This document shows, in pieces, positions 442-64,000 of a stretch of 64,000 nt of DNA. The DNA lies in assembly GCA_963826375.1 (NCBI GenBank), contig CAWGWN010000003.1, forward strand, positions 64,352-128,351, read 5' to 3'. Position 1 is the first letter of the stretch; every line of letters starts with the position of its first letter. This DNA comes from an uncultured Actinomycetota bacterium (GTDB taxonomy: Bacteria > Actinomycetota > Actinomycetes > Actinomycetales > Dermatophilaceae). A model generated the notes under the pieces. It had not been told where the DNA came from, did no database searches, and saw nothing but the letters and a program-made list of their open reading frames with translations. Made by a program: the position numbers and the translations under genes.

Positions 442-1053
442 CTAGGTGCGAGGGACTGCAAGCGCCGCGTTCGCGGCATACAGGCTGTACTTGTTGATGT
501 ACTGGACGACCCCGTCGGGGACGAGGTACCAGACCGGCTGACCCCCTGCCACCCGAGCCCGGCAGTCGCTCGAGCTGATCGCCATGGCGGGCACCTCGAG
601 CAGGTCGACCCCGCTGGTCGGCAGGCCGTCGGTGCTGAGCAGATGCCCGGGCCGGGTGACCCCGACGAAGTGGGCCAGGCCCCACAGCTCGTCGACGTCC
701 TTCCAGGTGAGGATCTGGGCCAGCGCGTCCGCACCGGTGATGAAGAACAGCTCGGCGTCAGGTCGCTCCGCATGCAGGTCGCGCAGGGTGTCCCCGGTGT
801 AGGTCTTGCCGGGCCGGTCGATGTCGACCCGGCTGACCGTGAAGTGCGGGTTGGACGCGGTCGCGATGACGGTCATCAGGTAGCGGTGCTCCGCCGGGCT
901 GACCTGCCGCCGCTCCTTCTGCCACGGCTCCCCGGTCGGCACGAAGACGACCTCGTCGAGGTCGAAGCGCGCCTGCACCTCGCTGGCCGCGACGAGGTGC
1001 CCGTGGTGGATGGGGTCGAACGTGCCGCCCATCACCCCGAGCCGCTCGCTCAG
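442..1053 (-). CDS. nadD: Nicotinate-nucleotide adenylyltransferase
   Basis: [17 protein letters not shown] and ISSS motifs; start uncertain (CTG at 1053 overlapping the upstream TGA, or a nearby GTG/ATG). Confidence 0.95.
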
Positions 1054-1241
1054 GGGTGCCCCTGGCTGGCCGACTCGTGCCGGTCGCCGACCTTCTGGCC
1101 GCTGTTGCGGAAGGTCCACAGCACCCCGAGCCCGGCGAGGAACAGGCCGAAGGCGATCGCCGCGAAGGCGATGGGGGGCATCGGGAGCTGCCGTTGGGCC
1201 TCCTCGGCGCGGACGAGGACGGGCAGGACGCTGGCTGACAT
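1050..1241 (-). CDS. Small single-TM membrane protein (63 aa)
   Basis: Hydrophobic core [25 protein letters not shown]; TAGTCT -10 six nt before the ATG; stop overlaps the nadD start. Confidence 0.7.
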
Positions 1242-1250
1242 GAGCACAGA

Positions 1251-1817
1251 CTACCGCTCAGCAGGCGCCTGGTGTCCCACCGGGAGCGCCCGAGACGCCA
1301 CCTCGACCCAGCGATGCCCGACACTGGCCCAGGGCTCCTCGCCCGACGCGATCGCGACCGTGAGCTCTGCGCAGCTGCGCTCGGCGAGGGCGACGAGGTC
1401 GGGTGGGTAGCCATAGCGGACCTGGTGCTCGGCGAACTCGTGCTCGTCGTCCACGAGGACGCTGCCGTCCAGCGCCCGGTAGACGTCCAGGTCGAGGTCC
1501 ACCGCCCTGACCGTCGCGCCGTCCCAGTCCGGCCCGGTGGTCACGTCGACGTAGATGTCGCAGGCGTCGTGGCCAGGCCCGTTGAACCTCGCCATCCACG
1601 CCTGGCCGGCCGGGATGAGCATGGCCACGTCGGTCCGGCTGTCGAGCGCCATCCCCGGCCGGTGCATGTGGAACCCGCGCGGGGCGCCCAGCCAGTGGCC
1701 GTGCTCGTCGGCGCCGAGATACCGCAGGTCCAGCTCCCAGTGCGGGCGCTCGCCCCACTTGGTGAAGCGGACCGCCACGAGGTCCCCGACCGGGCAGGGA
1801 GGTGGGGGGTGCGACAT
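1251..1817 (-). CDS. DUF402 domain protein
   Basis: [10 protein letters not shown]...YVDVTT...VDLDLDV...VDDEHEF pattern; TACGTT -10 six nt before the ATG. Confidence 0.85.
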
Positions 1818-1901
1818 ACCGCCAACGTATCGGTAACGCTTCACATCCCGGGCATACCTCACGCACAGGAACCCCCTTCCGCACGCCGTACTCTGGATGG
1901 C

Positions 1902-3009
1902 ATGACCCCCGAGCTGTCCGTCGTCATCCCGATGTACAACGAGGAGGATGTGCTGCCCCTCCTGGTGGAGCGGCTGCGTCCGCTCCTCGACGGCATCGGG
2001 ACGACGTATGAGGTGCTCGCGGTCGACGACGGCAGCACCGACCTCACGGCGGCCCTCCTGCAGCGCCTGCACCGGGAGTGGGACCAGTTCCGGGTCGTCC
2101 GGCTGCGGGCCAACGCCGGGCACCAGGCGGCCATCTCGGCCGGCCTGCTCTGCGCCCAGGGCGACTACGTGATCACCATCGACGCCGACCTGCAGGACCC
2201 ACCCGAGGTCATCGCCGAGATGCTGGCCAAGGCCCGAGGCGAGGGCGTCGACGTCGTCTACGGCATCCGGAACGACCGCTCGAGCGACTCCGTCTTCAAG
2301 CGGGTCACCGCCCGCGGCTTCTACTCGCTGATCCGAGCGGATCTCCGGCACGACCGCCCTCAGCGACGCCGGCGACTTCCGCCTCATGTCACGGGCCACG
2401 GTGGACGCCGTCAACGAGCTGCCCGAGCACAACCGGGTGCTGCGCTTCATCGTGCCGGCACTCGGCTTCCCCTCGGACACCGTCGAGTACCGCCGCGACG
2501 AGCGTGCAGCAGGCGCCTCGAAGTACCCCTTCCTCAAGATGCTCAAGCTGTCTCTGGACTCGGTCACCGGCTTCTCGATGGCGCCACTGCGCCTGGCGAC
2601 GGTCCTCGGGATCGGTGGCGGGGTGCTCGCCCTGCTCCTCGGGCTCTACGCGATCGTCCTCGGCGCCAGCGGGCATACGGTCGCCGGCTGGACCTCCACG
2701 GTGCTCATCGTCTCCGCGGTCGGCGCCGCCCAGCTGCTCTGCCTCGGGCTGCTCGGGGAGTACATCGGACGGATGTACACCCAGATGCAGGGACGACCGA
2801 CCTACTTCATCGCCTACGACTCGCTGACCGCCGCGGTCGGCCGGCACGGGCCGACCGACACTCCCCTGCCGCCGCCGGACCCCCGGGCCCGGACGGTGGA
2901 GCAGGCCGCGGCCACCCCGGTCAAGGGGACGCCCGTCCAGCCGACCCCGGGCCCCGTGCGGTCAGCGACTCCCGAGCCGGCTCGCGTCAGCGACGTGGCC
3001 GGGCGGTGA
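1902..3009 (+). pseudogene. GT2 glycosyltransferase (GtrB/polyprenyl-phosphate glycosyltransferase type) split by a +1 frameshift near 2336-2341
   Basis: VVIPMYNEE, VDDGSTD and IDADLQDPPE in one frame; continues as ISGTTALSDAGDFRLMSR plus two TM helices in another frame; removing one G from gagcggatc restores the ORF; may be a sequencing error. Confidence 0.8.
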
Positions 3010-3682: not shown

Positions 3683-3721
3683 GGTCGGTCATCATGCCAG
3701 TGCGGAGGGCCACCGAACGAA

Positions 3722-5008
3722 TCAGGTGCGGATCTGCCCGTCGCCGTCGACGACCCACTTCGTCGTCGTCAGCTCCGGGAGCGCCATCGGCCCCCGGGCG
3801 TGCAGCTTCTGGGTGGAGATGCCGATCTCCGCCCCGAACCCGAACTCGCCGCCGTCGGTAAACCGGCTCGACGCGTTGACGACCACGACCGCCGCATCCA
3901 CCTCCGCGGTGAACCGGCGTGCGGCAGCGCGGTCCTCCGTGAGGATGACCTCGGTGTGCTGGCTCCCGTAGGTGCGGATGTGCTCGAGCGCCTCGTCGAG
4001 GCTGTCGACGGTTCGCACGCTCATCTCCAACGCGTTCCACTCGGTGGCGAAGTCGTCCTCGGTCGCCTCGGTGTATGCCGCACCGGCAGCCTCGGCGTGC
4101 ACGCCCACCTCCGGCGAGGTGTGCAGCCGCACCCCCGCCGCCCCGAGGTCGGCGAGGACCTTGGGCAGGAAGCCTGAGGCGACGTCCGTGTGGACGAGCA
4201 GGGACTCGGCGGCGTTGCAGACGCTCGGGCGGTGGGTCTTGGCGTTGAGGACCACGGCGAGCGCCTTGTCCAGGTCGGCGGCGCGGTCGACATACACGTG
4301 GTTGACCCCGACGCCCGTCTCGATGACCGGCACGGTCGACTCGGTGACGACGGTCCGGATCAGGTCGGCTCCCCCTCGCGGGATCACCAGGTCGACCAGG
4401 CCCCGGGCGGTCATCAGGGCGCGGGCCGCGTCATGGCCTCCGCCGTCGAGCAGGCTGATCGAGTCGGCGGAGATCCCCTGTCGCTCCAAGGACGTGCGCA
4501 TGATGGTCACCAGCGCCCGGTTGGTCGCGCCGGCGGCCGAGCCGCCCCGCAGGATCACGGCGTTGCCACTCTTGAGGGTGAGCGCCGCCGCGTCGACCGT
4601 CACGTTGGGCCGGGCCTCGTAGATCATCCCGACGACCCCCATCGGGACCCGCACCTGCCGGATCTCGAGGCCGTTCGCCAAGGTGGTGCCGCGGACGACC
4701 TCACCGACGGGGTCGGGGAGGGCGGCGATGTCCCGCACGGCCTGGGCGATCGCGGCGACCCGGGGCCCGTCCAGCAGCAGCCGGTCCAGCAGACCGTCGG
4801 CCAGCCCGCGCGCGCGACCGCGCTCCTGGTCCTCGCGGTTGGCCTCGAGGATCGCCTCCGTGCCCGCCTCGAGCGCGTCCGCGATGGCCAGGAGGGCGTC
4901 GTCCTTGGGGGTGCGGGACAGCAGGGCCAGCTGCCGGGCGGCGGCGCCGGCCCGGCGGGCGACGTCGCCGACCTGGGCGACGACGGTGGGGTCGATCTCG
5001 GTGGGCAT
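3722..5008 (-). CDS. proA: Gamma-glutamyl phosphate reductase
   Basis: [43 protein letters not shown]. Confidence 0.97.
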
Positions 5009-5072
5009 ACCCTCAGGGTACGACGCGCGTGCCGACCAGCGGGCGCCTGTTCCGTCCCGTGGCCCGACTTAT

Positions 5073-5118: not shown

Positions 5119-5763
5119 ATGCCCCGCCGCCCCGCCGTCGAACGTCACCGGGACTCCGCACCACCCTCGAGCGCCTCCCCGCCGGGAAGCCGGTCCCCTC
5201 TCCCCTCGGTCGAGGCCCTGGTCGCGATGTCCCACCCGCTGCGGCGTCGGCTGCTCGACGTCCTGCGGGTCGACGGCGCGGCGTCGGTGGGCATGCTCGC
5301 CGACCGGCTGGACGTCGCCGTGGGAAGCGTCAGCCACCACGTCAAGACCTTGCATGCCAACGGCTTCATCGAGCCCGCCCCTGACCTGGCACGCGACACC
5401 CGGGAGAGCTGGTGGCGCTCCATCCCGGTGCGGCTGAGCTGGTCGCGCCTGGACTACGCGGAGGGGACCAGCGGCCGCGAGGTCGCGGAGGTCGCCGAGC
5501 GGGTCAACGTCGAGCGTCACATCCAGCTGATCCGGACGAGCCTGGACCTGCGACGGAGGCAGGATCCCGAATGGGAGCGCGCCGCGATGATCAGCGACAC
5601 GCTCGTGCGAGCGACGCCGCAGCAGCTCGCCGACCTGTCAGCCGAGCTGGTCGCCGTGGTGGACGTCTGGCGCAGGCGCTGCGCCGACGAGGCCGAGGCC
5701 TCCTCGCCGAAGGACAGCGCCCCGGCGCTCATCGCGCTGTATGCCGTGCCGGTCCAGCCATGA
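5119..5763 (+). CDS. ArsR-like helix-turn-helix regulator
   Basis: HPLRRRLLDVL...LADRLDVAVGSVSHHVKTL...GFIE; TACCGT-N7-ATG supports the start at 5119. Confidence 0.85.
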   Translation: MPRRPAVERHRDSAPPSSASPPGSRSPLPSVEALVAMSHPLRRRLLDVLRVDGAASVGMLADRLDVAVGSVSHHVKTLHANGFIEPAPDLARDTRESWWRSIPVRLSWSRLDYAEGTSGREVAEVAERVNVERHIQLIRTSLDLRRRQDPEWERAAMISDTLVRATPQQLADLSAELVAVVDVWRRRCADEAEASSPKDSAPALIALYAVPVQP

Positions 5764-7016
5764 GCGACCAGAGCGCGACCGAGGTCGCCCCTGCCGTGCC
5801 GCCCCTGGCTCGGGACCGGGCGGTCCAGACCTGGGTTGGAGCGAGCTTCGTGTCGTTCGCCGGCGACAGCGTCTTCCTCATCGGCTTCGCCTGGGCCGCG
5901 GTCCACGAGGCGGCGCCGGCGCTGGCCGGCCTGCTCATCGGCATCGGCACCCTGCCCCAGGCTCTCGTCATGCTCTTCGGCGGTGCGCTGGCCGACCGGC
6001 TGGACACCCGTCGGATGGTGCTGTCGGCCAACGCCGTGCGGATCCTCGTGCTCGTCACGGGGGCGGTGGCGTGGCAGTCCGGCGCACCACGGGTCCCGCT
6101 CATGGTCGCGGTGGCCACCGCCTTCGGCATCACCGACGCGATCTACAACCCGGCCAACGCCACACTGCCCCGGCAGATGGTCAGGGCCGATGACCTGGGC
6201 CGCGTGTCGGGCATGTTCCAGGTCTCGCGGCGGCTGGCGACCTTCGCCGGTGCGGGAGTCGGCGGGTGGCTGGCCGGATCCTTCGGTCTCGGCGTCGCAA
6301 TGCTCGTCGACGCGGCCAGCTTCGCCGTCGTGGGCGTCGCGTTGGGCGTCGTCGTCCGGCCCCGGTTCCGGCTGCCGAGGACCCCGCCCGTCTCGATGCT
6401 GCTCGGCATCCGTGAGGGCCTGCGCTATGTCCACGGCGACGAGGTCGCCCGCACCTTCGTCATCGCGACGAGCGGCCTCAACCTCTTCATCGGTCCTGCA
6501 CTGGCCGTGGGGGTCGCTCTGCGAGTGTCCGAGTCAGGTTGGGGCGCAGGGACACTCGGCCTCGTCGAGGCCTGCGTCGGCGCCGGGGCCGCAGTCGGCG
6601 CGGCGGCGACCATCCGGTGGCGCCCGCACCGGGACGCCTACTGGGGCTTCGTCGCCCTGGTCCCTCAAGGACTGGCCATCGGCGGGCTCGGTGTGCCACA
6701 TCGCTCCGTCGTCGCGCTCTCGGCGGCCGTCATCGGCCTCACGGCCGGGATGGCGTCGGTCCTCATCGCCGGCGCCCTGCAGCGCAGTCTCGACCCGGCA
6801 TACCTCGGCCGCGCGTCGTCGATGATCCAGCTGGGCGACCTCACCCTCATGCCGGCGATGATGCCCCTGCTCGGATGGCTCGCCCACGCCACCTCGGTGA
6901 CGATGGCCTGTGCTGTCTTCGGCGGCGCCATGGTCCTGCTCGCCGGATGGGGTGCGAGCCGCCGCCCGCTGCGTATGCTGACGCGCACCTCGGCGCCGGA
7001 GCCCGTCCCGGCCTGA
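5760..7016 (+). CDS. MFS transporter (efflux type)
   Basis: About 12 hydrophobic segments, [11 protein letters not shown] motif A; ATGA overlap with the regulator. Confidence 0.9.
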
Positions 7017-7051: not shown

Positions 7052-7663
7052 GTGAACGGTCTCTATGCACTCAAGCCGTGGTACTCCCGCCGGCTCGCCG
7101 TCGTCGTCGCGTCCGCCGTTCGCCGGGGCTGGTCGCCCGACCTGTTCACCGCCCTCGGGGTCCTCGCCGCTGCCGGTGCGGCCGCGACCATCTGGCGCGG
7201 CTGGTGGCTGCCCACCCTCGTCCTGCTCGGCGCCCGGCTCGCGGGTGCCAACCTCGACGGCGCCGTCGCCCGGGCCCGGGACGTCGCGCGCCCCTGGGGC
7301 TTCGTGCTCAACGAGATCGGCGACCGGACCAGCGACCTGCTCATGTATGCCGGGCTGGCGCTGCTGGCCGCCCGCGTCGGCGGCAGCTGGACCGACGGTG
7401 GGCTCCTCTGGGTGCTGGCCGCCGCGACGGCTGCCTCGCTGCCGACCTTCGCGTCACTGGCCGCCGCCGGCGCCGGCGGGACGCGACGCAACGGAGGGCC
7501 GCTGGGCAAGACCGAACGCTGCGCACTCGCGGTCGTCGCGGCCGGCGTCCCGGCATGGATCCCCGGGATCTGCGCCGTCATGGCGATCGGCTCGGTGCTG
7601 ACCGTCGCCGTGCGGCTGCACGGTGCGCACCGCGAGCTGGCCGAGACGGAAGGATGCGAGTGA
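7052..7663 (+). CDS. CDP-alcohol phosphatidyltransferase (YnbA-like)
   Basis: LYALKPWY N-terminus and ANLDGAVAR...[13 protein letters not shown] motif. Confidence 0.85.
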
Positions 7664-8577: not shown

Positions 8578-9809
8578 CGACGGGGAAGAGCCCCCGAGGC
8601 ACGCCGTCGTCCGGCGCCTCCCCGGTCGGGGCGATCCTGCGTCAGGGCCTCTGGCGTGCCGTCCTCAGTCTCACCGGTGGCCTGACCGTCACCGGTCCCC
8701 GGCCGCGCGGGGCGGCGATCCTCGTCGCGAACCACTCCTCCCACGCGGACACCGCGGCGCTGCTCGCGGCCATCCCCGGCCGCAGCAAGCCGGTCTTCGC
8801 CGCGGCCGCCGACTACTGGTTCGATCGACCGGTCCGCCGGCTGCTCGTCACCAGCCTCGCCGCCGCCGTGCCCGTCCACCGCGACGAGCAGGGCGCGTAT
8901 GCCGCCCTGCTCGCCGCCAGCGCCGAGGTGCTCGCCCGCGGCGGCATCGTCATCGTCTACCCCGAGGGGACCCGGACGACCACCGGCGAGGTGGGCGAGT
9001 TCCACCCGGGAGCGGTTCGCCTCGCCGACGACCTTGGCGTCGACCTCGTCCCCGCGGCGGTGCTCGGCACCCGGGACGTCCTGCCGAAGAACGGCCGCTT
9101 CCGGCCCGCGGCCGTGGAGGTGCGGTTCGGACCGCCGTTCGACTCCGAGGGGCTGGGCGCGGATCCGCATCGTGCTGCGGCGGCCTCGGACCGGCTGCGG
9201 CACACCGTGATCCGACTGCTCGGCACCGGAGAGCCGGCCGACCCCAGCTCCCCGCTCTGGGACCGCACCGTCCGTCGTGTCGACGGTCCGGCCGGGCTCC
9301 TCGGCGCCTTCGCCTGGGGCGCGGCGGAGGCGACCAGCTGGCCGGTGATCGCCGAGATGTATCTCGCCTTCTTCGCGGCGACGCGTCCTCGCCGTGTGCT
9401 GCCCTGCGCCGTGGCGCTCGCGGCGGGGTCGGTGACCGGAGTCGCCGTCAACGCCGCACTGAGCCGCCACGGCGTGACCCTCCCGGCGCCGTTGACCACA
9501 CGGCGGATGCGGGTCGCTGCGGCCGGACACCTGCGCGAAGGGGCATGGGGCATCCGCCGGCAGGCGTTCAGCGGCATACCCGTCAAGGTCTACGCCGCGC
9601 AGGCGGGCCGGATGGGTCTGCCGCTCGGCGAGCTGACCCTGGCCACCGCCGCTGCCCGGACCGCTCGGATCGTCGGCATGGGGGTGGCCGGCACCACCGC
9701 CGCCGCGCTCTTCCCGGCCACGGTGCGCAGGCGGTATGGCGCGTACCTGCTCGTCGCGGCGGCCGTCTGGGTCGTGGGTGAGCGCGCGGCCCTCCGGCGT
9801 TGGCGCTAG
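8574..9809 (+). CDS. Lysophospholipid acyltransferase (PlsC type) fused to a C-terminal DedA/YqaA-like membrane domain
   Basis: NHSSHAD (HxxxxD) and YPEGTR motifs; the C-terminal about 170 aa ([12 protein letters not shown]...[10 protein letters not shown]) is hydrophobic and DedA-like (inferred). Confidence 0.8.
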
Positions 9810-9883: not shown

Positions 9884-10993
9884 GTGTCCAGGTCCGTGAT
9901 CGCTGCCGCGCGCCGTCTGGTGGTCAAGGTCGGGTCCTCGTCCCTGACCGGACCCGACGGACGCATCGACGCCGCCCACCTGCAGGCGCTGGTCGACGTC
10001 ATCGCGGCCCGACACCTGCGCGGCGATGCCGTGGTCCTCGTCTCGTCCGGAGCGATCGCCGCCGGGCTGGGTCCGCTGAACCTGCCGCGCCGTCCCCGCG
10101 ACCTGGCCACCCAGCAGGCTGCCGCGAGCGTCGGGCAGGGAGCCCTGGTCGCGGCATACCAGCAGGCGTTCGGTGTCCACGGGCTCACCGTCGGGCAGGT
10201 GCTGCTCACCGCCGACGACGTGACTCGGCGCTCCCACTACGCCAACGCCCGCCGCACCCTGGACCGCCTCATCGACCTCGGCATCGTGCCGGTCGTCAAC
10301 GAGAACGACACCGTCGCCACGCACGAGATCCGGTTCGGCGACAACGACCGGCTCGCCGCCCTCGTCGCGCACCTCGTCCACGCGGACGCGCTCGTCCTGC
10401 TCTCCGACGTCGACGGGCTCTATGACGGGCCGCCGTCTCGTCCCGGCACCTCGCGCATACCCGTTGTCGGGCACCCGGACGACCTGTCCGGCGTCGTGGT
10501 CAAGGGGTCGCGGTCGCTCGTCGGGACCGGAGGGATGTCCACCAAGATCGAGGCGGCCGCGATCGCCAACGCCGCCGGCATCACCGCGCTGGTCACCTCG
10601 GCCGGCCAGGCGCAGGCGGCGCTCGACGGCGACGAGGTCGGGACGCTCTTCCTGCCCACCGGGTCACGCCGGGCTTCGCGGTTGCTGTGGCTCGCCCATG
10701 CGACCACCGCCCGGGGTCGGGTCATCCTCGACGACGGCGCCGTGACGGCAGTCGTCGACCGGCGCACCTCGCTGCTGCCCGCGGGCATCACGGCCGTCGA
10801 GGGCCAGTTCAGCGACGGGGACCCGGTGGACCTCTGTGCCGCCGACGGCAGGGTGGTCGCCCGAGGGCTGGTGAACTACTCGTCCGACGAGCTGCCCGGA
10901 CTGCTCGGGCGCTCAACCAAGGACCTGGCCCGCGAGCTCGGCCCGCAGTACGAGCGGGAGGTCATCCACCGCGACGACCTCGTCCTGCTCTGA
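9884..10993 (+). CDS. proB: Glutamate 5-kinase with PUA domain
   Basis: VVKVGSSSL, VNENDTVA, FGDND, GTGGMSTKIEAA; TAGACT-N7-GTG. Confidence 0.97.
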   Translation: MSRSVIAAARRLVVKVGSSSLTGPDGRIDAAHLQALVDVIAARHLRGDAVVLVSSGAIAAGLGPLNLPRRPRDLATQQAAASVGQGALVAAYQQAFGVHGLTVGQVLLTADDVTRRSHYANARRTLDRLIDLGIVPVVNENDTVATHEIRFGDNDRLAALVAHLVHADALVLLSDVDGLYDGPPSRPGTSRIPVVGHPDDLSGVVVKGSRSLVGTGGMSTKIEAAAIANAAGITALVTSAGQAQAALDGDEVGTLFLPTGSRRASRLLWLAHATTARGRVILDDGAVTAVVDRRTSLLPAGITAVEGQFSDGDPVDLCAADGRVVARGLVNYSSDELPGLLGRSTKDLARELGPQYEREVIHRDDLVLL

Positions 10994-12601: not shown

Positions 12602-12661
12602 GCTCGCTCCTCTCGTCGGTGACCCTCGGTATGCCGGGGTCGGGTGTGCGGTCTCTCAACG

Positions 12662-18379: not shown

Positions 18380-18495
18380 GACGACAACCTACGGGACGCT
18401 GCCCACGACGACGGCCGCCAGTGGCCCGGTCCGGTGAGCCACGGCATACGGAACGGGTTGGAGAGCAGCCCCGCGGGTCTGGGAAGATCACCGGC

Positions 18496-22039: not shown

Positions 22040-22059
22040 CGGCATACCCCCGTATGCCG
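22040..22059. terminator. Hairpin CGGCATAC-CCCC-GTATGCCG downstream of clpX
   Basis: Perfect 8-bp stem between convergent genes, formed from two copies of the iterated octamer. Confidence 0.65.
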
Positions 22060-28824: not shown

Positions 28825-28931
28825 TTACGTGCCCTCACGGCATACCGGTCCGTCAAGGGGCCGGGTTGGGTCGCCGCCAGTGCGGGCATTAGGCTAACGC
28901 CCCGGACGAGCCGGTCCTATCCGGGTCGCCC

Positions 28932-39788: not shown

Positions 39789-39873
39789 CCGTCGTCACGG
39801 CATACCTCGGGTCGCCGGGTGGGCCTGTGGACGACGGCGGCCAAGGTCGCCGGGGCCGCCCTAGCCTCAGGCC

Positions 39874-46354: not shown

Positions 46355-46439
46355 ACCCCATCTTGGCAGGCCCGACCCCTGGGGGGCCGCCTACCCCGCT
46401 GCTCTGTCCGGCCGACCAGGGACGACGCCCGATCACCCT

Positions 46440-48634: not shown

Positions 48635-49416
48635 GACAGGGCACGGACATGACTGGTGAGCCGCTGGTCCGCCCAGACATGCACGGTGAAGGCCGGCGGC
48701 AGAGCCGGGTCGATGACGGCGCCGTCCGCGACCATCGCCGACTCGCTCGCAAGGACGAGCGTGGACACCACGCCGGGCGCGACGAGCACCGGACGGCCCG
48801 CGAACGTCGACGCCGCTGCGGTGTGCGCGTGACCGCACAGGACGGCAACGACCTGCTCGTGCCGCCGCAGGACGGAGGCCAGCCGCTCCGGCTCGAGGAG
48901 GCGCAGCGCGTCGATGGACGGCACGTGCAGCGACACGGGCGGGTGGTGGAAGCACACGAAGCTCGGTGTCCCCGCAGCACCGGCCAGCTGCTCCTCGAGC
49001 CAGTCGAGGGTGGTGTCGTCGAGAAGGCCCTCGTCGCGGCCCGGGATGCTCGAGTCGCACATCAGGAACCGCACGCCGCCGATGTCGAAGGCCTGGTTCA
49101 CCGGACCCGGTTCGCCGGCGCCGGTGAGGCCGACGCGTCCGCCGAGCAGCTGCGTCGTCATCGGCTCCCGGCGGTCGTGGTTACCGGGGCAGACGAGGAC
49201 CGGCACGGGGGCCAGACGTCCCAGCAGCCGTCCGACCTCGGCATACTCCTGCGGCAGGCCGTGGTCCGCGAGGTCGCCCGTCACCACGACGACGTCGGGC
49301 GGCGGGTCCATCGCGAGGACGTGCTCGACGACGCGACCTGCCCTGGCGGCGGCCCGCGGCGCGCCGTCGAGGTGCAGGTCGCTCAGCTGGACGACGACCA
49401 GCGGCGGCTCGGTCAC
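48625..49416 (-). CDS. CpdA/Icc-like metallophosphoesterase
   Basis: SDLH, TGDLAD, PGNHD, HHPP and GHAH; GTGA overlap with yczE. Confidence 0.9.
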   Translation of the reverse strand: MTEPPLVVVQLSDLHLDGAPRAAARAGRVVEHVLAMDPPPDVVVVTGDLADHGLPQEYAEVGRLLGRLAPVPVLVCPGNHDRREPMTTQLLGGRVGLTGAGEPGPVNQAFDIGGVRFLMCDSSIPGRDEGLLDDTTLDWLEEQLAGAAGTPSFVCFHHPPVSLHVPSIDALRLLEPERLASVLRRHEQVVAVLCGHAHTAAASTFAGRPVLVAPGVVSTLVLASESAMVADGAVIDPALPPAFTVHVWADQRLTSHVRALSMG

Positions 49417-50168: not shown

Positions 50169-51623
50169 ATGTCAGGCCCGTCCCGGCGCCCCCGGACCGT
50201 CTCCGCTCGCAGCGTCGTCGGCCAGCTCGGCGCCGTTCCCTCCGCGGGCGGACCCGCCTACCAGGAGCTCGCCGAGGGGCTGCGGCGCCTCGTCGCGGAC
50301 GGGCGCATCCTCGACGGGACCCGGCTGCCGAGCGAGCGTGAGCTGACGGCGGCGCTCGGTGTCAGCCGCACCACCGTGGCCGGTGCGTATGCCGTGCTGC
50401 GCGACCGCGGCTACCTGCACTCGCGACGTGGTTCGGGCAGTGTCGTCACGGTGCCGGGCGGCCGCCGGGCAGGCGGACCGCTGCATCCCGGGGCGAATTC
50501 CGATGCCGACATCGACCTGTCCATCGCGGCCCCCAGCGCGCCTCCCGGGATCGCCGAGGCCTTCGAGGACGCCGTCCAGGAGCTGCCCCACCACCTCAGC
50601 GGCGCGGGGTACTCCCCGTTCGGCCTGCCCGAGCTGCGCGAGGTGCTCGCCGACCGGTACGCGCAGCGCGGGCTGCCGACCAGCCCGGGCCAGATCATGG
50701 TCACGACGGGAGCCCTGGCAGCCCTGTCGGTCGTCCTGCGCGGCAGCATCGGCCCCGGTGACCGGGTCCTCATGGAGTCGCCGACCTACCCGAACGCGCT
50801 GGCGTCAGTGCGGGACTCGGGCGCCCGAACAGTCGGGCTCCCGCTCGACCCCGAGGGACTCGAGGCGCACGCGCTCGAGGTCGCGCTGCGTCAGAGCTCG
50901 GCGACCCTGGCCTACCTCATCCCGGACTTCCAGAACCCCACCGGCCTGCTCGTCGACGACGCGACGCGAGAGCGGGCGGGGGCGGCGCTGCGACGCCAGC
51001 GAACCATCGCGGTCGTCGACGAGACTCCGGTCGACCTCGGCATCGACGTCGCGCCGGAGCAGATGCCTCGGCCCATGGCGGCGTTCGCCGACAGCGCAGT
51101 GACCATCGGCAGCTCGAGCAAGACCTACTGGGGCGGGCTGCGGGTCGGCTGGCTGCGTGCCCCTGAGCGGGAGCTGCCCCGCTTCGAGCAGTCCCGGCTC
51201 GGCCTCGACCTCGGCGTCCCGGTCCTCGAGCAGCTCGTCCTGCGTCGCCTGCTGAGCGAGGGTGACCAGGGGCCCGCCCACCGCCGCGAACAGCTGCGGA
51301 GCTCGCGCGACGCCCTGGTGTCGGCGTTGCGCGGCCAGCTGCCGGACTGGCGCTTCGTCGTCCCCGCCGGTGGCCTGAGCGTCTGGTGCGAGCTCCCGGG
51401 GCCCCGCTCGAGCGCCGTGTGCGATGCCGCTGCCGGGCTCGGGGTGCGGCTGGCGCCCGGCTCCGCCTTCGGCGTCGAGGGCGGCCTGGAGTCCTTCCTG
51501 CGCATCCCGTTCGCACTCACACCGGAGGTCCTCACCGACGCGGTCGGCCGGATCGCCCGGGCGTGGGAGCTCGCCGAGCAGGGACACTCGCCGCAGCGGC
51601 CCCGCGTGAGCCTCATCGCCTAG
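50169..51623 (+). CDS. MocR/GntR regulator with PLP aminotransferase domain (YczR-like)
   Basis: RLPSERELT..LGVSRTTV.AY..L..RGSGS; PDFQNPTG and SKTYWGGLRVGW; divergent from yczE. Confidence 0.92.
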   Translation: MSGPSRRPRTVSARSVVGQLGAVPSAGGPAYQELAEGLRRLVADGRILDGTRLPSERELTAALGVSRTTVAGAYAVLRDRGYLHSRRGSGSVVTVPGGRRAGGPLHPGANSDADIDLSIAAPSAPPGIAEAFEDAVQELPHHLSGAGYSPFGLPELREVLADRYAQRGLPTSPGQIMVTTGALAALSVVLRGSIGPGDRVLMESPTYPNALASVRDSGARTVGLPLDPEGLEAHALEVALRQSSATLAYLIPDFQNPTGLLVDDATRERAGAALRRQRTIAVVDETPVDLGIDVAPEQMPRPMAAFADSAVTIGSSSKTYWGGLRVGWLRAPERELPRFEQSRLGLDLGVPVLEQLVLRRLLSEGDQGPAHRREQLRSSRDALVSALRGQLPDWRFVVPAGGLSVWCELPGPRSSAVCDAAAGLGVRLAPGSAFGVEGGLESFLRIPFALTPEVLTDAVGRIARAWELAEQGHSPQRPRVSLIA

Positions 51624-56178: not shown

Positions 56179-57339
56179 ATGCTCAGCACCCGCCTCGTTT
56201 CCCCCCGCTCACGTTCCCGAAGGCTGGCCGGCGCAACGGGAGTGCTGACCGCGTGCACCCTGTCCATCCTCGTCGTGGGTGTCGGGCCGGCAGCCGCCGC
56301 CCAGCCGCCGGTGGGCCTGGGGACGGCCGAGAGCTTCGCCGTCCTCGCCGCCGCGACCGTCACCAACACCGGTCCCTCCGTGATCAGCGGGAGCGTCGGG
56401 GTCTCGCCCGGGACGGCCATCACAGGCTTCCCCCCGGGTCTGGTGACCAACGGCACGATCCACGCAGCCGACGCCGTAGCGCTGCAAGCCCAGGTGCATC
56501 TCACCACTGCCTATGTGGACGCGGCAGGGCGCATACCGGTCAGCGTGGTCACCGCCGACCTCAGCGGGCAACAGCTCACCGCCGGCGTGTATGCCGGCGC
56601 GACCCTCGGACTGACCGGCACGGTGACGCTCGATGCGGAGAACGACCCCAACGCGGTCTTCATCTTCGAGTCGCAGAGCACCCTCGTCACCGGCAGCTCC
56701 AGCGTCGTCGCCCTCACCAACGGCGCCAAATGGTGCAACGTCTTCTGGCGGGTCGGAAGCTCGATCACCCTCGGGACGACCTCGACCTTCGTCGGGACGG
56801 CGATGGCGTTGACGTCGATCAGCGCCCAGACGGATGCGACCATCGAAGGCAGGTTGCTGGCACGCACCGGGGAGGTCACGCTCGACAGCAACGTCATCAC
56901 CCGGCCCGGGTGCGTCCCGGCCTCGGCGAACGCCACGCCGAGCTCGAGCAGCACCACGTCTTCGAGCAGCACCACGTCTTCGAGCAGCACGACGTCTTCG
57001 AGCAGCACGACGTCTTCGGGCACGACCACCTCCTCTGGTTCAACCACCGCAGCAGGCACGGACACCCTGTCCGGCGCCGCTCTCGGCCAAGGCACCTCGT
57101 CTGGCTCGGGCACGACGACACCGGCCCCCACCTCGGACGGAGCGGCGAACGCGCCGGTGCGGCCGCGGCTGGGCGGCGGGACCCCCGAACGCAGTACGTC
57201 GAGCTCGGTCCCCGGTCTCCCCAGCACCGGCAGCACCGTAGGTGGACCGGTCGCCGCAGGCGTGGCCGCCCTCGTCCTCGGCTGCTGGATGATGCTCGCG
57301 GCGCATCACGGCAGGCGCGTCGGGCGTCACCGCGGGTGA
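56179..57339 (+). CDS. Secreted DUF3494 ice-binding-like protein with Ser/Thr stalk and LPxTG-type anchor
   Basis: Signal peptide; LGTAESFAVLA..TVTNTG.S...G.VG.SPGTAITGF, TLDA..DPNAVFIF, NVFW.VGSS.TLG..S.F.G; LPSTG, TM helix and basic tail. Confidence 0.9.
   Translation: MLSTRLVSPRSRSRRLAGATGVLTACTLSILVVGVGPAAAAQPPVGLGTAESFAVLAAATVTNTGPSVISGSVGVSPGTAITGFPPGLVTNGTIHAADAVALQAQVHLTTAYVDAAGRIPVSVVTADLSGQQLTAGVYAGATLGLTGTVTLDAENDPNAVFIFESQSTLVTGSSSVVALTNGAKWCNVFWRVGSSITLGTTSTFVGTAMALTSISAQTDATIEGRLLARTGEVTLDSNVITRPGCVPASANATPSSSSTTSSSSTTSSSSTTSSSSTTSSGTTTSSGSTTAAGTDTLSGAALGQGTSSGSGTTTPAPTSDGAANAPVRPRLGGGTPERSTSSSVPGLPSTGSTVGGPVAAGVAALVLGCWMMLAAHHGRRVGRHRG
56944..57051 (+). repeat. 18-bp tandem repeat coding SSSTTS x4 plus 2 degenerate units
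   Basis: TCGAGCAGCACSACGTCT units at 56944, 56962, 56980 and 56998. Confidence 0.9.
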
Positions 57340-59164: not shown

Positions 59165-60847
<1,683 letters not shown>

Positions 60848-61504: not shown

Positions 61505-61660
61505 CCCTGTTCCCCTTTGTCGCGTTCGCTTCCCGCCGCCTGGCGGGTCCTGTCAGCATGCGGGGGCGATGACAGACCGTCGAGCGAGCCGCCCTCGAGT
61601 GTGGACCGCGCGGTGCTGAGGTCGGCGGGTGTGGAGAACCCAGGACCGAGGACGGCTGCC

Positions 61661-63340
61661 TCAGGAGTCCTGGGCGGCGTCGAGATGGGTCCGCGTGGCG
61701 GCGTGGCGCTCGACAACCTGACGCACCGGCGCCACGAGGCGGGCGGTGGCGACCTGCTCGATCGCGGACTCCAACCGCTTCCGCACCACCTCGCGCCGTC
61801 GGACGGCGCCCCGACTCCCGAGCGCACGAGCGACGCTGGCGGCCAGTGGCCCGAGGACGATGCCGGCCGCCAGGAGCAGGACGGGGTAGGCGACGGGACC
61901 CAGCCGGGGGGTCTCGACCGGGGGCAGCTGCAGCCAGCCGATGACCGCGAGGCCGACGAGCCAGACGAGTCCGGTGACCAGGGCCAGCCCCAGGGCCCAC
62001 TGGAGGATGCCCATGACCCGCCACCACATCGGTGTGTGCGCCCGCAGCGATGTGCGGACCACGGCCTGGTCGAGAGCCTGGTCGAGCCGGTCGTCGTCCG
62101 GGTCGGTCACCTCGGAGATCGCCTGCGCCCAGCGCACCGGGAGCCCCGCTCCGGCCCGGTCGCCCAGATCACGGGCCGCGAGGCGCACCGCGGACCTGGC
62201 TGCCGGCGACGGCGCCGGGATCGAGGACCTGCCCAGGAGGGCACGCACCTCGGACGCCTCGACGCTGCCGATGACACCGGCCGCCTTGTCCAGACGCAAC
62301 CGGGTGAACGGGTCTGCCTTGAGATGGCGCCGCCAGCGCGTGAAGAGCCAGCCACTGCGGGCAACGGCCTCGCGGCGGTAGTCCTCCTCGACAGCCGTCA
62401 GGACGATGGGGACGCCGGCCGCTCGGCACAGCGCGTCGACGAGCTCGCTGCCCGCACCCGCCTCGACCTCCGGCTCGGTGTCAGCCACCCCGCGGCGCAG
62501 CCTTCCCGCCACGAGGGTGACGTCAGCGGACAGCCGCTGCCGCGCCGCGTGGCCACCCGCGACCGCGTTGCTGAGGCGCTGCCGGAGCTCGGGCACACCG
62601 GCCCCCGTCACGGCCGAGGTGGTCAGCACCTGGACGTTGCGCACACCGTCGGACCGCAGGATCTGACCGAGGTCGTCCTGGCACTGACGCACGGCCTCCG
62701 GACTGAGCCGGTCCGTCTGGTTCAGCACGACGAGCATCACGGCGTCGTGTCCGGACAGGGCCTTGACGTAGTCGTCATGTAGCAGGGCGTCGGCATACTT
62801 CTGCGGGTCGGTGACCCAGACGAAGACGTCGCACACCGCGAGCACCCGCTGCGCCTCGGCTCGATGGTCCAGCTCGCGGGAGTCGAAGTCGGGCAGGTCG
62901 AGCAGGACGAGCCCGTCGAGGCTGCCGACCGACTCACCCCTGCCCGGCGCCGCTGAGCGCCCGGTGACCGCATGCCGCTGGTCGACGCTGAGCCAGTCGA
63001 GCAGGTCGGCGGCCGGCTCCTCGCCCCATACGGCTGCGGTCGGCGTCGACGTCGTCGGCCGACGCGCGCCGATCGTCGCGAGGTCCGCTCCAGCCAGGGC
63101 GTTGAACAGCGACGACTTGCCGCTGCCGGTGGCGCCGGCCAACGCGACGACGGTGTGGTTGCCGGCCAGTGAGCTGCGCTGGCGGACCTTCTCGAGGATG
63201 CGCTGCGCCTCGGTCACCCCGGTCGGGTCGAGCTGTGGCCCACCGGCGTCGATGGCCTGGTCGAGTGCGGCCGTCTGCGTTCCGAGGGCCTCCACCGAGG
63301 GGGCGGTGATCCGCCGGGCACCCATGATCAGCGGACTCAT
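61661..63340 (-). CDS. Dynamin-like GTPase (DynB-like)
   Basis: GATGSGKSSLFN, DLPDFDS, DPQKYAD, NQTD and two C-terminal TM helices. Confidence 0.85.
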   Translation of the reverse strand: MSPLIMGARRITAPSVEALGTQTAALDQAIDAGGPQLDPTGVTEAQRILEKVRQRSSLAGNHTVVALAGATGSGKSSLFNALAGADLATIGARRPTTSTPTAAVWGEEPAADLLDWLSVDQRHAVTGRSAAPGRGESVGSLDGLVLLDLPDFDSRELDHRAEAQRVLAVCDVFVWVTDPQKYADALLHDDYVKALSGHDAVMLVVLNQTDRLSPEAVRQCQDDLGQILRSDGVRNVQVLTTSAVTGAGVPELRQRLSNAVAGGHAARQRLSADVTLVAGRLRRGVADTEPEVEAGAGSELVDALCRAAGVPIVLTAVEEDYRREAVARSGWLFTRWRRHLKADPFTRLRLDKAAGVIGSVEASEVRALLGRSSIPAPSPAARSAVRLAARDLGDRAGAGLPVRWAQAISEVTDPDDDRLDQALDQAVVRTSLRAHTPMWWRVMGILQWALGLALVTGLVWLVGLAVIGWLQLPPVETPRLGPVAYPVLLLAAGIVLGPLAASVARALGSRGAVRRREVVRKRLESAIEQVATARLVAPVRQVVERHAATRTHLDAAQDS

Positions 63341-64000
63341 CGGTTGACCTTGACGGCGAGTGCTGCCGCGGCGAGGCGGCCGGCCTGGTCGACCGACGTC
63401 TCCTGAGCTTCCACCGTCTGGGTGAAGCGTGCCTCTTCGTCGTCGTACAGCTGTTCCACCCTTTCGATGAGCGCCTGTCTCGCCTTGGTGGCGAGCGTGC
63501 GCACGGCCTGGTCCCCGAAGATCGCCTCGAGCAGCTTCTGCCCGAGAATCGCTGTGCCCCCGGCGATCCCGGCCTCGGCGCCGGTCAGCCCGCCGGTGTG
63601 CGCGAAGGTGACGAGGATGAGCACCGTCCCCACGGCGTTCACCCCGTATGCCGTGACCCGCGCCGTCGTGCGCCGGTCCTGTCCCTGCGTCCGCACGAGG
63701 TCCAGCACGTCACCCTGCCAGTCGTGGACGAGGGCGGCGACCCTCTCGCAGAAGGCGGGTGAGACGGACCCGAGGGCCGGGTGCTCCTCGACGAGTGCCG
63801 GACCTCCGGGCAGCGAGCGCCATTGGCGGACCGTGGCCGCGGCGGCGGACTGGGCGTGGGCACGGACGAGCTCCGAGACCCCCGTCTCGAGCGCCTCACC
63901 GAGGTCCCCCGAGGGCGGCGGGTCGCCCTTGACCGCCGCGACCACCCGGTCCCGGAGCCGCGAGACGGTGGTCTCCACCTGCTTGAAGAACTCTCCGGTG
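63337..64000 (-). CDS. Dynamin-like protein (DynA-like), 3' part only
   Basis: ORF stays open past the window end; helical C-terminus with a hydrophobic hairpin (GVNAVGTVLILVTFA..GGLTGAE); ATGA-coupled to the next GTPase. Confidence 0.75.
   Translation of the reverse strand, partial: TGEFFKQVETTVSRLRDRVVAAVKGDPPPSGDLGEALETGVSELVRAHAQSAAAATVRQWRSLPGGPALVEEHPALGSVSPAFCERVAALVHDWQGDVLDLVRTQGQDRRTTARVTAYGVNAVGTVLILVTFAHTGGLTGAEAGIAGGTAILGQKLLEAIFGDQAVRTLATKARQALIERVEQLYDDEEARFTQTVEAQETSVDQAGRLAAAALAVKVNR

What the first reader, a model, noticed from the sequence alone, without database searches (positions are those of the whole stretch)
474..63653. Highly iterated non-palindromic octamer CGGCATAC/GTATGCCG across the window
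Seen: a manual scan found about 33 copies of the heptamer GGCATAC/GTATGCC. Start positions are 475, 1851, 2672, 4073, 5004, 5739, 6797, 7345, 8897, 9573, 10153, 12629, 18443, 19314, 22041, 22052, 28839, 30779, 31249, 32301, 33701, 34381, 39596, 39799, 43922, 45378, 45870, 46350, 49240, 50387, 56589, 62792 and 63646. About 29 of these are the octamer CGGCATAC. At about 72% GC the zero-order expectation is about 6 heptamers and about 2 octamers. Orientation is balanced (17 vs 16). In genes the motif is often spelled with codons rare in high-GC actinobacteria: TAT-GCC in nadD, arsR, ynbA, plsC, valS, pepN, aglA, yczR and the IBP; GCA-TAC; and ATA at 9576. It also covers the proA and thioesterase start codons and forms both arms of the clpX hairpin. 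I found none in rplU, rpmA, obgE, rne, clpX, clpP, tig or ettA. The synonymous G-TAC-GCC alternative still occurs (for example 21063, 35236, 58787), so the bias is not absolute. Established: Chi and KOPS are strand-skewed; DNA-uptake sequences and cyanobacterial HIP1 are not. Inference: a genome-wide maintained signal such as an uptake sequence, a methyltransferase or nucleoid-protein target, or a repair-linked motif. I know of no description of it for this group.
Basis: partly seen in the sequence, partly recalled or inferred. Interest (0 to 1): 0.85.

Follow-up and report, generated by a model that had tools for sequence, protein, structure and literature searches.

The report
Uptake-sequence-like octamer saturating an actinobacterial genome
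The eight-letter DNA word CGGCATAC/GTATGCCG occurs about every 2 kb on both strands of this high-GC actinobacterium and most of its family, against codon preference and even changing proteins, which matches the 'self-DNA' uptake tags of Haemophilus and Neisseria, a signal I found no report of in this phylum; its function here is not shown.

Summary
The window holds 29 octamers and 33 heptamers, where about 1-2 are expected. The whole 3.56-Mb genome holds 1699 copies (857/842 by strand). It is the top outlier octamer genome-wide. It is 10x enriched over a synonymous-codon shuffle, in all six frames and between genes.

It is not a codon, adapter or repeat-element artefact. There is no replichore skew. 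Copies are missing from low-GC islands. Motif-encoded tripeptides are enriched in step with motif density. The word is family-wide (Dermatophilaceae/Intrasporangiaceae-like): about 40 of 67 genera carry 500-5400 copies. Some poor lineages carry other words instead.

New here: copies in the same orientation avoid each other up to about 1 kb, while opposite copies do not. I found the same asymmetry for the canonical Haemophilus-type USS, but not for E. coli Chi.

This genome has none of the three main DNA methyltransferase families. RecC is absent from most motif-rich genomes. ComEA, ComEC and Tad pilins are present in rich and poor genomes alike.

Best reading (about 0.5): a DNA-uptake-sequence-like self tag kept up by transformation-linked drive. 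The reader protein and the function are unproven.

The parts
474..481 (+). octamer CGGCATAC
   Evidence: My ORF call here is doubtful. The minus-strand frame with coding GC3 reads ..G TAT GCC G...
4073..4080 (-). octamer in proA, read on the coding strand as xCG-GCA-TAC (A-A-Y)
   Evidence: The syntenic site in G016 is not the motif.
5739..5746 (-). octamer, not inside any of my gene calls
6796..6803 (+). octamer, not inside any of my gene calls
7345..7352 (-). octamer in a minus-strand ORF (7066-7581), P-A-Y
8897..8904 (-). octamer in a plus-strand ORF (8496-9806), G-TAT-GCC-G (Y-A)
9572..9579 (+). octamer in the same ORF, C-GGC-ATA-C (G-I), using the rare Ile codon ATA
   Evidence: The genome has only 356 ATA codons.
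10152..10159 (+). octamer in a plus-strand ORF (9800-10990), xCG-GCA-TAC (A-A-Y)
   Evidence: G016 has CGGCGTAC at the orthologous site.
12629..12636 (-). octamer between obgE and the next small minus-strand ORF (12717-12986)
18442..18449 (+). octamer at the 5' end of valS, CGG-CAT-ACn (R-H-T)
19314..19321 (-). octamer in valS. The conserved R-Y-Q (cgC TAC CAG) is rewritten to R-Y-A (cgG TAT GCC G).
   Evidence: Eight motif-rich genomes share the rewrite, and the ValS tree needs at least 4 changes.
22040..22059 (.). inverted octamer pair CGGCATAC-CCCC-GTATGCCG, forming an 8-bp hairpin stem between a plus-strand ORF (ends 22026) and the clpX stop
28838..28845 (+). octamer, not inside any of my gene calls
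31248..31255 (+). octamer in a minus-strand ORF (30793-31464), G-TAT-GCC-G (A-Y-A-V)
32301..32308 (-). octamer in a minus-strand ORF (32079-33227), A-A-Y
33701..33708 (-). octamer in pepN, GTA-TGC-CGn (V-C-R)
34381..34388 (-). octamer in pepN, G-TAT-GCC-G (V-Y-A-V). G016 and L014 have F-A here.
39596..39603 (-). octamer in a plus-strand ORF (37521-39785), E-Y-A-G
39798..39805 (+). octamer in the short gap between ORFs 37521-39785 and 39819-42728
43921..43928 (+). octamer in a plus-strand ORF (43854-45266), P-A-Y
45378..45385 (-). octamer, not inside any of my gene calls
45869..45876 (+). octamer, not inside any of my gene calls
46349..46356 (+). octamer covering the ATG (minus strand, 46354-46352) of a YbgC-type thioesterase
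49239..49246 (+). octamer, not inside any of my gene calls
50387..50394 (-). octamer, not inside any of my gene calls
56589..56596 (-). octamer in a minus-strand ORF (56514-57236), P-A-Y
62791..62798 (+). octamer, not inside any of my gene calls
63646..63653 (-). octamer in a minus-strand ORF (63340-65085), T-A-Y. G016 has CGGCGTAC at the orthologous site.
1851..1857 (+). heptamer GGCATAC only (a one-off variant of the octamer)
2672..2678 (+). heptamer only
5004..5010 (+). heptamer only; covers the proA start codon (minus strand, gene 3725-5008)
30779..30785 (-). heptamer only

Best explanation
CGGCATAC/GTATGCCG is a maintained, DNA-level 'self' word of the uptake-sequence kind (USS of Pasteurellaceae, DUS of Neisseriaceae). 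It has a weak 5' extension, C at -2 and A/G at -1.

Proposed mechanism (inferred, not shown): these bacteria carry the ComEA/ComEC import channel and Tad-type pili that Micrococcus luteus uses for natural transformation. Some component of DNA binding, import or integration prefers fragments that carry the word. Alleles that match the word are therefore transmitted by recombination more often than alleles that do not. This molecular drive accumulates the word wherever the protein tolerates it. It overrides codon bias and replaces amino acids.

Foreign DNA (islands) lacks the word. Hairpin stems carry it on both arms.

Shown: the statistics, the phylogenetic spread, the effects on codons and proteins, the orientation-specific short-range avoidance and its presence in the canonical USS, and the absence of methyltransferases.

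Inferred: that uptake or transformation is the process that reads the word.
For: (1) Abundance. There are 1699 copies, the top octamer outlier. Enrichment is 10x over a synonymous shuffle, in all six frames, and between genes at about the same density.

(2) Strand balance. Strands are balanced in every 100-kb bin, and overall spacing is Poisson-like.

(3) Islands. Density falls to zero in low-GC bins with atypical composition.

(4) Codons and peptides. TAT reaches 82% and GCA 61% in motif context. Motif-encoded tripeptides are enriched in step with motif density across G016 < G000 < G124, for example YAV 0.95/1.64/2.65 and GMP 1.37/1.70/4.05. This is the property Findlay & Redfield list as shared by all uptake sequences (PMC2817400).

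(5) Hairpins. Within 60 bp there are 48 inverted pairs against 5 direct pairs, and many form perfect stems.

(6) Spread. The word is bimodal by genus across the family, with 500-5400 copies in about 40 of 67 genera and none in 16 other families of the order. Other words occur in poor lineages: CGCCGTACGG, CCCCCTTCG, CCGCATCG.

(7) Same-orientation avoidance. At 60-750 bp there are 106 same-orientation pairs against 330 opposite pairs (p = 8e-28). Twenty-two control octamers give a same-orientation share of 0.48-0.64. The canonical USS shows the same asymmetry, 2 against 15 at 60-300 bp. E. coli Chi does not, with 10 pairs against 13.1 expected.

(8) Convergent rewriting. Conserved ValS R-Y-Q becomes R-Y-A in at least 4 lineages, with 5 base changes. 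Treangen et al. made a comparable observation for DUS (PMC2397512).

(9) Machinery. ComEC and ComEA lie 8-10 kb left of the window. ComEC is intact in 79 of 80 family genomes, and TadE-like pilins are in all 70 tested.
Against: I know of no report of natural competence in this family, and none turned up in my searches.

ComEC, ComEA-type genes and Tad genes are just as present in motif-poor genomes, so they do not discriminate. No receptor candidate was found.

A simple uptake-drive model, in which one tag per fragment suffices in any orientation (PMC1939737, PMC7811141), predicts orientation-independent interference. What I see is orientation-specific, and the range is longer than for USS (about 0.75-1 kb against about 0.3 kb).

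Intergenic DNA is not richer in the word than coding DNA (about 22% of copies in about 21% of the sequence by my crude gene calls). USS and DUS, by contrast, are reported as over-represented outside genes.

The USS calibration rests on 17 pairs from metagenome contigs.
Confidence: 0.5

Rival explanations
1. An intracellular DNA-level signal of unknown reader, comparable to cyanobacterial HIP1. This could be a binding or loading site for a conserved chromosome-maintenance protein, or the target of an unknown biased gene-conversion process. Such a process would favour the word in heteroduplexes without any role for DNA uptake.
For: The same statistics fit any orientation-balanced maintained signal. 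The word is identical across about 40 genera, which suggests a conserved core reader. The same-orientation avoidance implies polar reading, which simple uptake models do not predict. The competence genes do not discriminate rich from poor genomes.
Against: No candidate reader emerged. FtsK-gamma is single-copy everywhere, RecC is mostly absent, and methyltransferases are absent. HIP1 is palindromic and linked to methyltransferases. Per-site selection for a binding site would have to overcome codon and protein constraints at thousands of sites. The USS-specific calibration favours the uptake class.
Confidence: 0.25
2. A Chi-like polar signal for the actinobacterial end-resection machine AdnAB. 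Each orientation would stop or modulate a nuclease-helicase coming from one side of a two-ended break. Both orientations would then be needed everywhere, and a second copy in the same orientation nearby would be redundant.
For: It is non-palindromic, 8 bases long like E. coli Chi, enriched in native DNA and absent from islands. Same-orientation redundancy with independent opposite copies is what a direction-specific reader predicts. AdnA and AdnB are present. Whether AdnAB responds to any Chi is an open question (PMC5314763, PMC4824097).
Against: There is no replichore skew at all, whereas E. coli Chi is known from the literature to be strongly skewed toward the leading strand. E. coli Chi shows no same-orientation avoidance in 100 sites, while USS does. 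RecC is absent from 30 of 37 motif-rich genomes. AdnA is not unusually divergent in the congener that has switched word: 66% identity in G016 against 63% in G124, and neighbouring genes behave similarly. Occupancy saturates beyond about 0.75 kb instead of rising with gap length. The force is strong enough to change conserved residues.
Confidence: 0.12
3. Target of a DNA methyltransferase, orphan or part of a restriction-modification system. The word would be maintained through methylation-dependent functions or very-short-patch-type repair.
For: The one-off neighbour GTATGCTG is depleted (9 copies against 22-87 expected). HIP1 has been linked to methyltransferases.
Against: G000 and G017 have no match to PF00145, PF01555 or PF02384. 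G124, the densest genome, has no C5 methyltransferase. A single-neighbour repair bias could supply only tens of copies, not 1699. Several neighbours are depleted and others are enriched. Fully specified asymmetric 8-mers are unusual methyltransferase sites (my knowledge).
Confidence: 0.03
4. A by-product of codon or dipeptide usage, base composition, a dispersed repeat element, or Illumina adapter contamination (GTATGCCG is part of the P7 adapter).
For: High-order Markov models absorb most of the excess. The literature hits for the word are adapter sequences.
Against: The synonymous shuffle gives 130 against 1330 observed. All six frames and intergenic DNA are enriched. Flanks are unconserved beyond 2 bases and do not continue as the adapter does. 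The same word is abundant in about 100 independent assemblies of one family and in none outside it.
Confidence: 0.01

Closest known systems
USS of Pasteurellaceae (AAGTGCGGT / ACAAGCGGT; receptor still unidentified, to my knowledge)
   Same: Both have a short non-palindromic core with a weaker flank. Both reach about one copy per 0.7-2 kb, with equal numbers on both strands and no replichore skew. Both occur in all reading frames with roughly 2x tripeptide enrichment. Both are rare in islands and in strongly constrained genes. Both form inverted pairs in hairpins. Both come as clade-level variants. Both show same-orientation avoidance at short range (PMC2817400, PMC7811141).
   Different: The phylum differs (Actinomycetota, Gram-positive envelope, Tad pili rather than type IV pili). 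Uptake bias is untested. The avoidance range is longer (about 0.75-1 kb against about 0.3 kb). There is no intergenic excess. The word is AT-richer than its 71% GC genome.
DUS of Neisseriaceae (GCCGTCTGAA and dialects; read by the minor pilin ComP)
   Same: Both are conserved family-wide with lineage 'dialects'. Both form inverted pairs in terminator-like hairpins. Spacing is of the order of conversion-tract length. New copies differ from the ancestral sequence at many bases at once (PMC2397512, PMC3868556).
   Different: I did not search for ComP-type pilins. The alternative words in poor lineages are not simple one-base dialects (CGCCGTACGG, CCCCCTTCG, CCGCATCG). Function is untested.
Chi of E. 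coli (GCTGGTGG; read by RecC in RecBCD)
   Same: Both are 8-base, non-palindromic, over-represented in native DNA, and plausibly read in a polar way.
   Different: E. coli Chi is known to be skewed toward the leading strand, while this word is 50:50 in every bin. Chi shows no same-orientation avoidance. RecC is absent from most motif-rich genomes. Chi fits preferred codons, while this word overrides them.
HIP1 of cyanobacteria (GCGATCGC)
   Same: Both are hyper-abundant octamers inside and outside genes, clade-specific, and of unknown function.
   Different: HIP1 is a palindrome that contains methyltransferase sites. This word is asymmetric, and the genome lacks the main methyltransferase families. 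The G016 word, with its palindromic CCGTACGG core, is closer to HIP1 in form.

Membership tests
DNA uptake sequences (USS/DUS) | Competent cells preferentially take up or are transformed by DNA that carries the word | not testable with these tools
   Needs uptake-competition or transformation assays. I found no competence report for this family.
DNA uptake sequences (USS/DUS) | Hundreds to thousands of copies, both strands equal, no replichore skew | tested here: met
   857/842 copies, balanced in every 100-kb bin. Balanced in about 190 related genomes.
DNA uptake sequences (USS/DUS) | Enrichment of the tripeptides that the word encodes | tested here: met
   1.2-4x, scaling with motif density across three genomes. 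Criterion from PMC2817400.
DNA uptake sequences (USS/DUS) | Under-representation in recently acquired DNA | tested here: met
   All nine empty 10-kb bins are below the genome's mean GC (0.62-0.69), most clearly so, and the most atypical sixth of bins by tetranucleotide composition has the lowest density. Density rises with GC.
DNA uptake sequences (USS/DUS) | Inverted pairs that form hairpins at gene ends | tested here: met
   48 inverted against 5 direct pairs within 60 bp. The window example lies past the clpX stop.
DNA uptake sequences (USS/DUS) | DNA import machinery present | tested here: met
   ComEC, ComEA and TadE-like pilins are present. They are equally present in motif-poor genomes, so this is permissive only.
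DNA uptake sequences (USS/DUS) | Excess in non-coding DNA | tested here: inconclusive
   About 22% of copies lie in about 21% 'non-coding' sequence, but my gene calls cover only 79% of the genome.
Chi sites | Orientation bias with respect to replication | tested here: not met
   382 against 368 copies on the 1.5-Mb replichore stretch of contig C9. No bin is skewed.
Chi sites | A cognate RecBCD/AddAB-type enzyme whose activity the word changes | tested here: inconclusive
   RecC is in only 7 of 37 motif-rich genomes. AdnAB is present, but whether it responds to any Chi is unknown. Biochemistry is not testable here.
KOPS/AIMS (FtsK-orienting words) | Strong skew that switches at the terminus | tested here: not met
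   No skew on either side of the gene-orientation switch at about 1.5 Mb of C9. One FtsK-gamma domain per genome in rich and poor genomes alike.
HIP1-type iterated palindromes | Palindromic word that contains methyltransferase sites | tested here: not met
   The word is asymmetric. PF00145, PF01555 and PF02384 are absent from G000 and G017.
REP/MITE-type dispersed repeats | Conserved sequence beyond the core, and intergenic location | tested here: not met
   Flank information is below 0.4 bits beyond the core, apart from codon periodicity. About 78% of copies lie inside genes.
Restriction-modification or orphan methyltransferase target | A methyltransferase encoded in every genome that carries the word | tested here: not met
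   No hit to the three main families in G000 and G017. Rarer methyltransferase families were not searched.

The most novel reading that the evidence does not exclude
The octamer could be the so-far unknown Chi-equivalent of the actinobacterial AdnAB resection machine. More generally, it could be a new class of polar 'self' signal. In that class each orientation is read separately over about 1 kb, and both are needed everywhere because breaks are two-ended (for instance those made by the NucS mismatch nuclease). This would explain the orientation-specific redundancy without involving DNA uptake.
Probability: 0.12. Interest if true: 0.95.

Novelty: new variant of a known kind. Interest (0 to 1): 0.8.

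Why it matters
To my knowledge, sequence-specific DNA uptake tags are established only in two proteobacterial families. A word with all their genomic hallmarks in a large family of high-GC actinobacteria would have three consequences. (This family includes the wastewater polyphosphate accumulators around Tetrasphaera/Phycicoccus, and Janibacter, Knoellia and Terrabacter.)

(a) It would point to widespread, self-biased natural transformation in a phylum where competence is known mainly from Micrococcus luteus.
(b) It would give a simple handle for making these organisms genetically tractable: put the word on the incoming DNA.
(c) It offers about 190 genomes with graded densities, and within-genus switches of the word, in which to look for the unknown reader.

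Two observations go beyond the analogy. First, same-orientation copies exclude each other while opposite copies do not. I also see this in the canonical USS. I found no analysis of it in the uptake-sequence papers I read, and simple one-tag-per-fragment drive models do not predict it. It suggests that uptake tags are read directionally. Second, the word has repeatedly overwritten a conserved residue of valyl-tRNA synthetase, which shows how strong the force is.

Tried and rejected
- **High-order Markov nulls.** Order 5-6 models give 1152-1610 expected copies. I rejected them as circular, because the sub-words come from the motif itself.
- **Single-neighbour repair signature.** GTATGCTG is depleted, but the pattern over all 24 neighbours does not fit a single-neighbour (very-short-patch-type) repair signature.
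- **Replichore skew.** None.
- **RecC profile.** Anticorrelated if anything: 7 of 37 rich against 15 of 33 poor genomes.
- **Extra FtsK-gamma or TraB-like reader.** Exactly one gamma domain everywhere.
- **Methyltransferases.** C5, N4/N6 and N6 families are absent from the window's genome.
- **ComEC and TadE.** Universal, so not discriminating.
- **Partial proteome screen.** I looked for proteins conserved in G124 but divergent in G016. Only 53 shared hits came out, and AdnA and AdnB are unremarkable. ComEA (47%) and ComEC (57%) are among the less conserved proteins of the syntenic block, but the ComEA N-terminal region is low-complexity and repetitive, which by itself lowers identity.
- **Polarity test.** I compared one-off variants upstream and downstream of intact copies. 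The distribution is symmetric.
- **Viral contigs.** A scan for inverted pairs gave only chance hits in phages of unrelated GC content.
- **Literature search by the word itself.** Swamped by Illumina adapter text.
- **CGGCATCC.** It looked like a dialect in L011, L034 and L038. It is about 2x enriched in all genomes tested, so it is more likely a GGC-ATC codon effect.

Full report
**1. The observation**

The window has 29 CGGCATAC/GTATGCCG octamers (15 +, 14 -) and 33 GGCATAC heptamers. Dinucleotide-preserving shuffles give 1.05 and 1.96.

The window is C3:64352-128351 of a 3.56-Mb, 71% GC, nine-contig genome. Genome-wide there are 1699 copies (857 +, 842 -), or one per 2.1 kb. Order 0-3 Markov models expect 52-125. 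Under an order-3 model the word is the first-ranked octamer (z = 141), and its sub-words and super-words fill the top of every list from k = 6 to k = 10. The word passes it.

Orders 5-6 approach the observed count only because the 6- and 7-mers used as 'background' come from the motif itself, so those nulls are circular.

The core is exactly 8 bases. Outside it there is only C at -2 (71%) and A/G at -1, plus codon periodicity. The word is therefore not a repeat element. It is also not the Illumina P7 adapter, which contains GTATGCCG but continues differently.

**2. It is a DNA-level signal**

I made crude gene calls from GC3 periodicity: 2932 ORFs covering 79% of the genome. With these, copies lie in all six frames and outside genes at about the genomic density.

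A shuffle of synonymous codons within each gene keeps every protein and each gene's codon usage. It gives 130 +/- 10 copies against 1330 observed. Enrichment is 3.9-19x in each frame.

Codon choice is overridden:
- G-TAY-GCC-G uses TAT in 82% of cases, against 13.7% genome-wide. This context holds 27% of all TAT codons.
- xCG-GCN-TAC uses GCA in 61% of cases, against 6% genome-wide.

Proteins are changed too. Tripeptides that the word encodes rise with motif density across three genomes, G016 (no motif) < G000 < G124 (14 copies per 10 kb):

| Tripeptide | G016 | G000 | G124 |
|---|---|---|---|
| YAV | 0.95 | 1.64 | 2.65 |
| TAY | 1.5 | 2.0 | 3.6 |
| RHT | 0.57 | 1.23 | 2.8 |
| VCR | 1.04 | 1.42 | 3.03 |
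| GMP | 1.37 | 1.70 | 4.05 |

One site shows the force plainly. In valS (window 19314) the conserved H-P-D-D-E-R-Y-Q, spelled cgC TAC CAG in all outgroups and motif-poor relatives, is rewritten to R-Y-A, cgG TAT GCC G. That is five base changes. Eight motif-rich genomes share the rewrite, and the ValS tree needs at least four separate changes.

**3. Distribution**

- There is no strand or replichore skew in any 100-kb bin. This includes both sides of the gene-orientation switch at about 1.5 Mb of contig C9.
- Overall spacing is Poisson-like, with CV 0.99.
- Density rises with local GC although the word is AT-richer than the genome. Density is zero in the low-GC bins with atypical composition that look like islands.
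- Within 60 bp there are 48 inverted pairs and 5 direct pairs. Many inverted pairs are perfect stems. The window's example is CGGCATAC-CCCC-GTATGCCG just past the clpX stop.
- In the window, obgE, rne, clpX, clpP, tig and ettA carry no copy. That is about 10 kb, where about 5 copies are expected.

**4. Phylogenetic spread**

- In 24 congeners the count runs from 19 to 3728. In 16 other families of the order it equals the control word.
- Across 151 genomes of the family (67 genera, at least 90% complete) the distribution is bimodal by genus. About 40 genera have 500-5400 copies; G124 has 5422 in 3.6 Mb. About 27 genera are at control level. Strands are always balanced.
- Named valS loci place the family as Dermatophilaceae/Intrasporangiaceae in the broad sense. 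Arsenicicoccus, Pedococcus, Intrasporangium, Terrabacter, Knoellia, Serinicoccus, Ornithinimicrobium and Metallococcus are rich. Cellulomonas, Oerskovia and Promicromonospora are not.
- Some poor lineages carry other strand-balanced hyper-abundant words with unconserved flanks. G016, a congener, has CGCCGTACGG (127 copies in 480 kb, 14x). G088 has CCCCCTTCG (14x). G048 has CCGCATCG (4.7x). In G000 these words are at 1.0-1.6x.

**5. An orientation-specific exclusion**

- In G000, the all-pairs density for same-orientation copies is 0.06-0.10 below 300 bp, 0.17-0.21 at 300-750 bp and 0.33-0.35 at 750-1500 bp. The baseline is 0.43. Opposite-orientation pairs sit at baseline throughout.
- At 60-750 bp there are 106 same-orientation and 330 opposite pairs (p = 8e-28).
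- Twenty-two control octamers give a same-orientation share of 0.48-0.64.
- The denser G124 shows the effect more weakly: 180 against 298.
- Occupancy of potential sites shows the same thing. I measured motif against its synonymous variant CGGCGTAC as a function of distance to the nearest same-orientation copy. Occupancy is 0.50, 0.60, 0.73 and 0.76 in the four bins up to 750 bp, then plateaus at about 0.9. It is flat with distance to opposite copies.
- There is no upstream/downstream asymmetry.

I first read this as arguing for a Chi-like polar reader and against an uptake tag, because uptake of USS is reported to be orientation-independent (PMC1939737). So I calibrated against both known systems.

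- *Canonical USS.* I used 77 non-redundant Pasteurellaceae metagenome contigs (560 kb, 470 AAGTGCGGT sites). After removing members of inverted pairs, USS shows the same asymmetry at 60-300 bp: 2 same-orientation pairs against 15 opposite. There is none beyond 300 bp.
- *E. coli Chi.* In E. coli K-12, the first 100 forward Chi sites give 10 same-orientation pairs at 60-750 bp against 13.1 expected, and 6 against 4.5 at 60-300 bp. That is no avoidance.

The peculiarity is therefore shared with a proven uptake sequence and not with Chi. It remains mechanistically unexplained.

**6. Candidate readers**

| Candidate | Result |
|---|---|
| FtsK-gamma | exactly one per genome everywhere |
| C5 methyltransferase (PF00145) | absent from G000, G017, G124 and many other rich genomes |
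| N4/N6 (PF01555) and N6 (PF02384) methyltransferases | absent from G000 and G017 |
| ComEC | intact in 79 of 80 genomes |
| TadE-like pilins | in all 70 genomes |

The methyltransferase results, together with the neighbour analysis, reject the methyltransferase and very-short-patch readings.

G000 has ComEC and ComEA 8-10 kb left of the window, and an AdnA/AdnB pair. The import machinery that M. luteus uses (PMC4322843) is therefore present, but it does not discriminate rich from poor genomes.

AdnA is not unusually divergent in the congener that has switched word. Whether AdnAB has a Chi at all is an open question in the literature.

**7. Verdict**

The word is real, maintained, and family-wide. 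It meets every sequence-based hallmark of uptake sequences that I could test. I found no description of it. Five earlier notes of this scan reported the same word in other genomes of the family; I treat them as leads, not as evidence.

My probabilities:
- Uptake-sequence-like self tag: about 0.5
- Unknown intracellular or gene-conversion signal: about 0.25
- AdnAB Chi-like signal: about 0.12
- Methylation target: about 0.03
- Artefact: about 0.01

**Limits**
- My gene calls are crude.
- Samples of relatives are 80-480 kb.
- The USS and Chi calibrations are small.
- No experiment links the word to any process.

Noticed in passing
G016:C1:1-480000 (loci L081-L084, L121-L140): This congener lacks CGGCATAC (19 copies in 4.6 Mb). 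It carries CGCCGTACGG instead (127 copies in 480 kb, 14x), with a palindromic CCGTACGG core. Its copies are depleted at 60-750 bp in both orientations (5 pairs against about 28 expected). Y-G dipeptides are raised (1.26).
   Followed up: partly
G088:C1:1-80000 (L089-L092) and G048:C1:1-80000 (L093-L096): Two other motif-poor genera have their own strand-balanced hyper-abundant words with unconserved flanks: CCCCCTTCG (36 copies in 80 kb, 14x) and CCGCATCG (55 copies in 80 kb, 4.7x).
   Followed up: partly
loci L262-L341 (Pasteurellaceae metagenome contigs): The canonical uptake sequence AAGTGCGGT shows same-orientation-specific avoidance at 60-300 bp (2 pairs against 15 opposite, after removing inverted-pair members). 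I found no analysis of this in the uptake-sequence papers I read.
   Followed up: partly
window 19270-19365 (valS) and loci L001-L020: In the invariant ValS segment HPDDERYQxLFG, Gln is replaced by Ala only in genomes where the octamer is written there. The ValS tree needs at least four independent changes.
   Followed up: yes
genome C3:55972-57036 (about 8 kb left of the window): The ComEA homologue (SLBB + HHH_3) has an N-terminal low-complexity part with a GPVGSR triple repeat. ComEA (47% identity) and ComEC (57%) are among the least conserved proteins of the block that is syntenic with G016.
   Followed up: partly
whole genome G000: No match at all to the three main DNA methyltransferase Pfam families (PF00145, PF01555, PF02384), which is unusual for a 3.6-Mb bacterium. 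RecC is patchy in the family (22 of 70 genomes).
   Followed up: partly
G016:C1:1-480000: The AT-rich 10-mers AATCGGATTC/AATCCGATTC and ACATTATCGG occur 8-9 times each, with essentially none expected. They could belong to a small dispersed repeat or an operator family.
   Followed up: no
window 11075-16733, 22077-28146 and 59168-60847: obgE, rne, clpX, clpP, tig and ettA together carry no copy in about 10 kb, where about 5 are expected. This is consistent with exclusion from highly expressed or strongly constrained genes, as reported for USS.
   Followed up: partly
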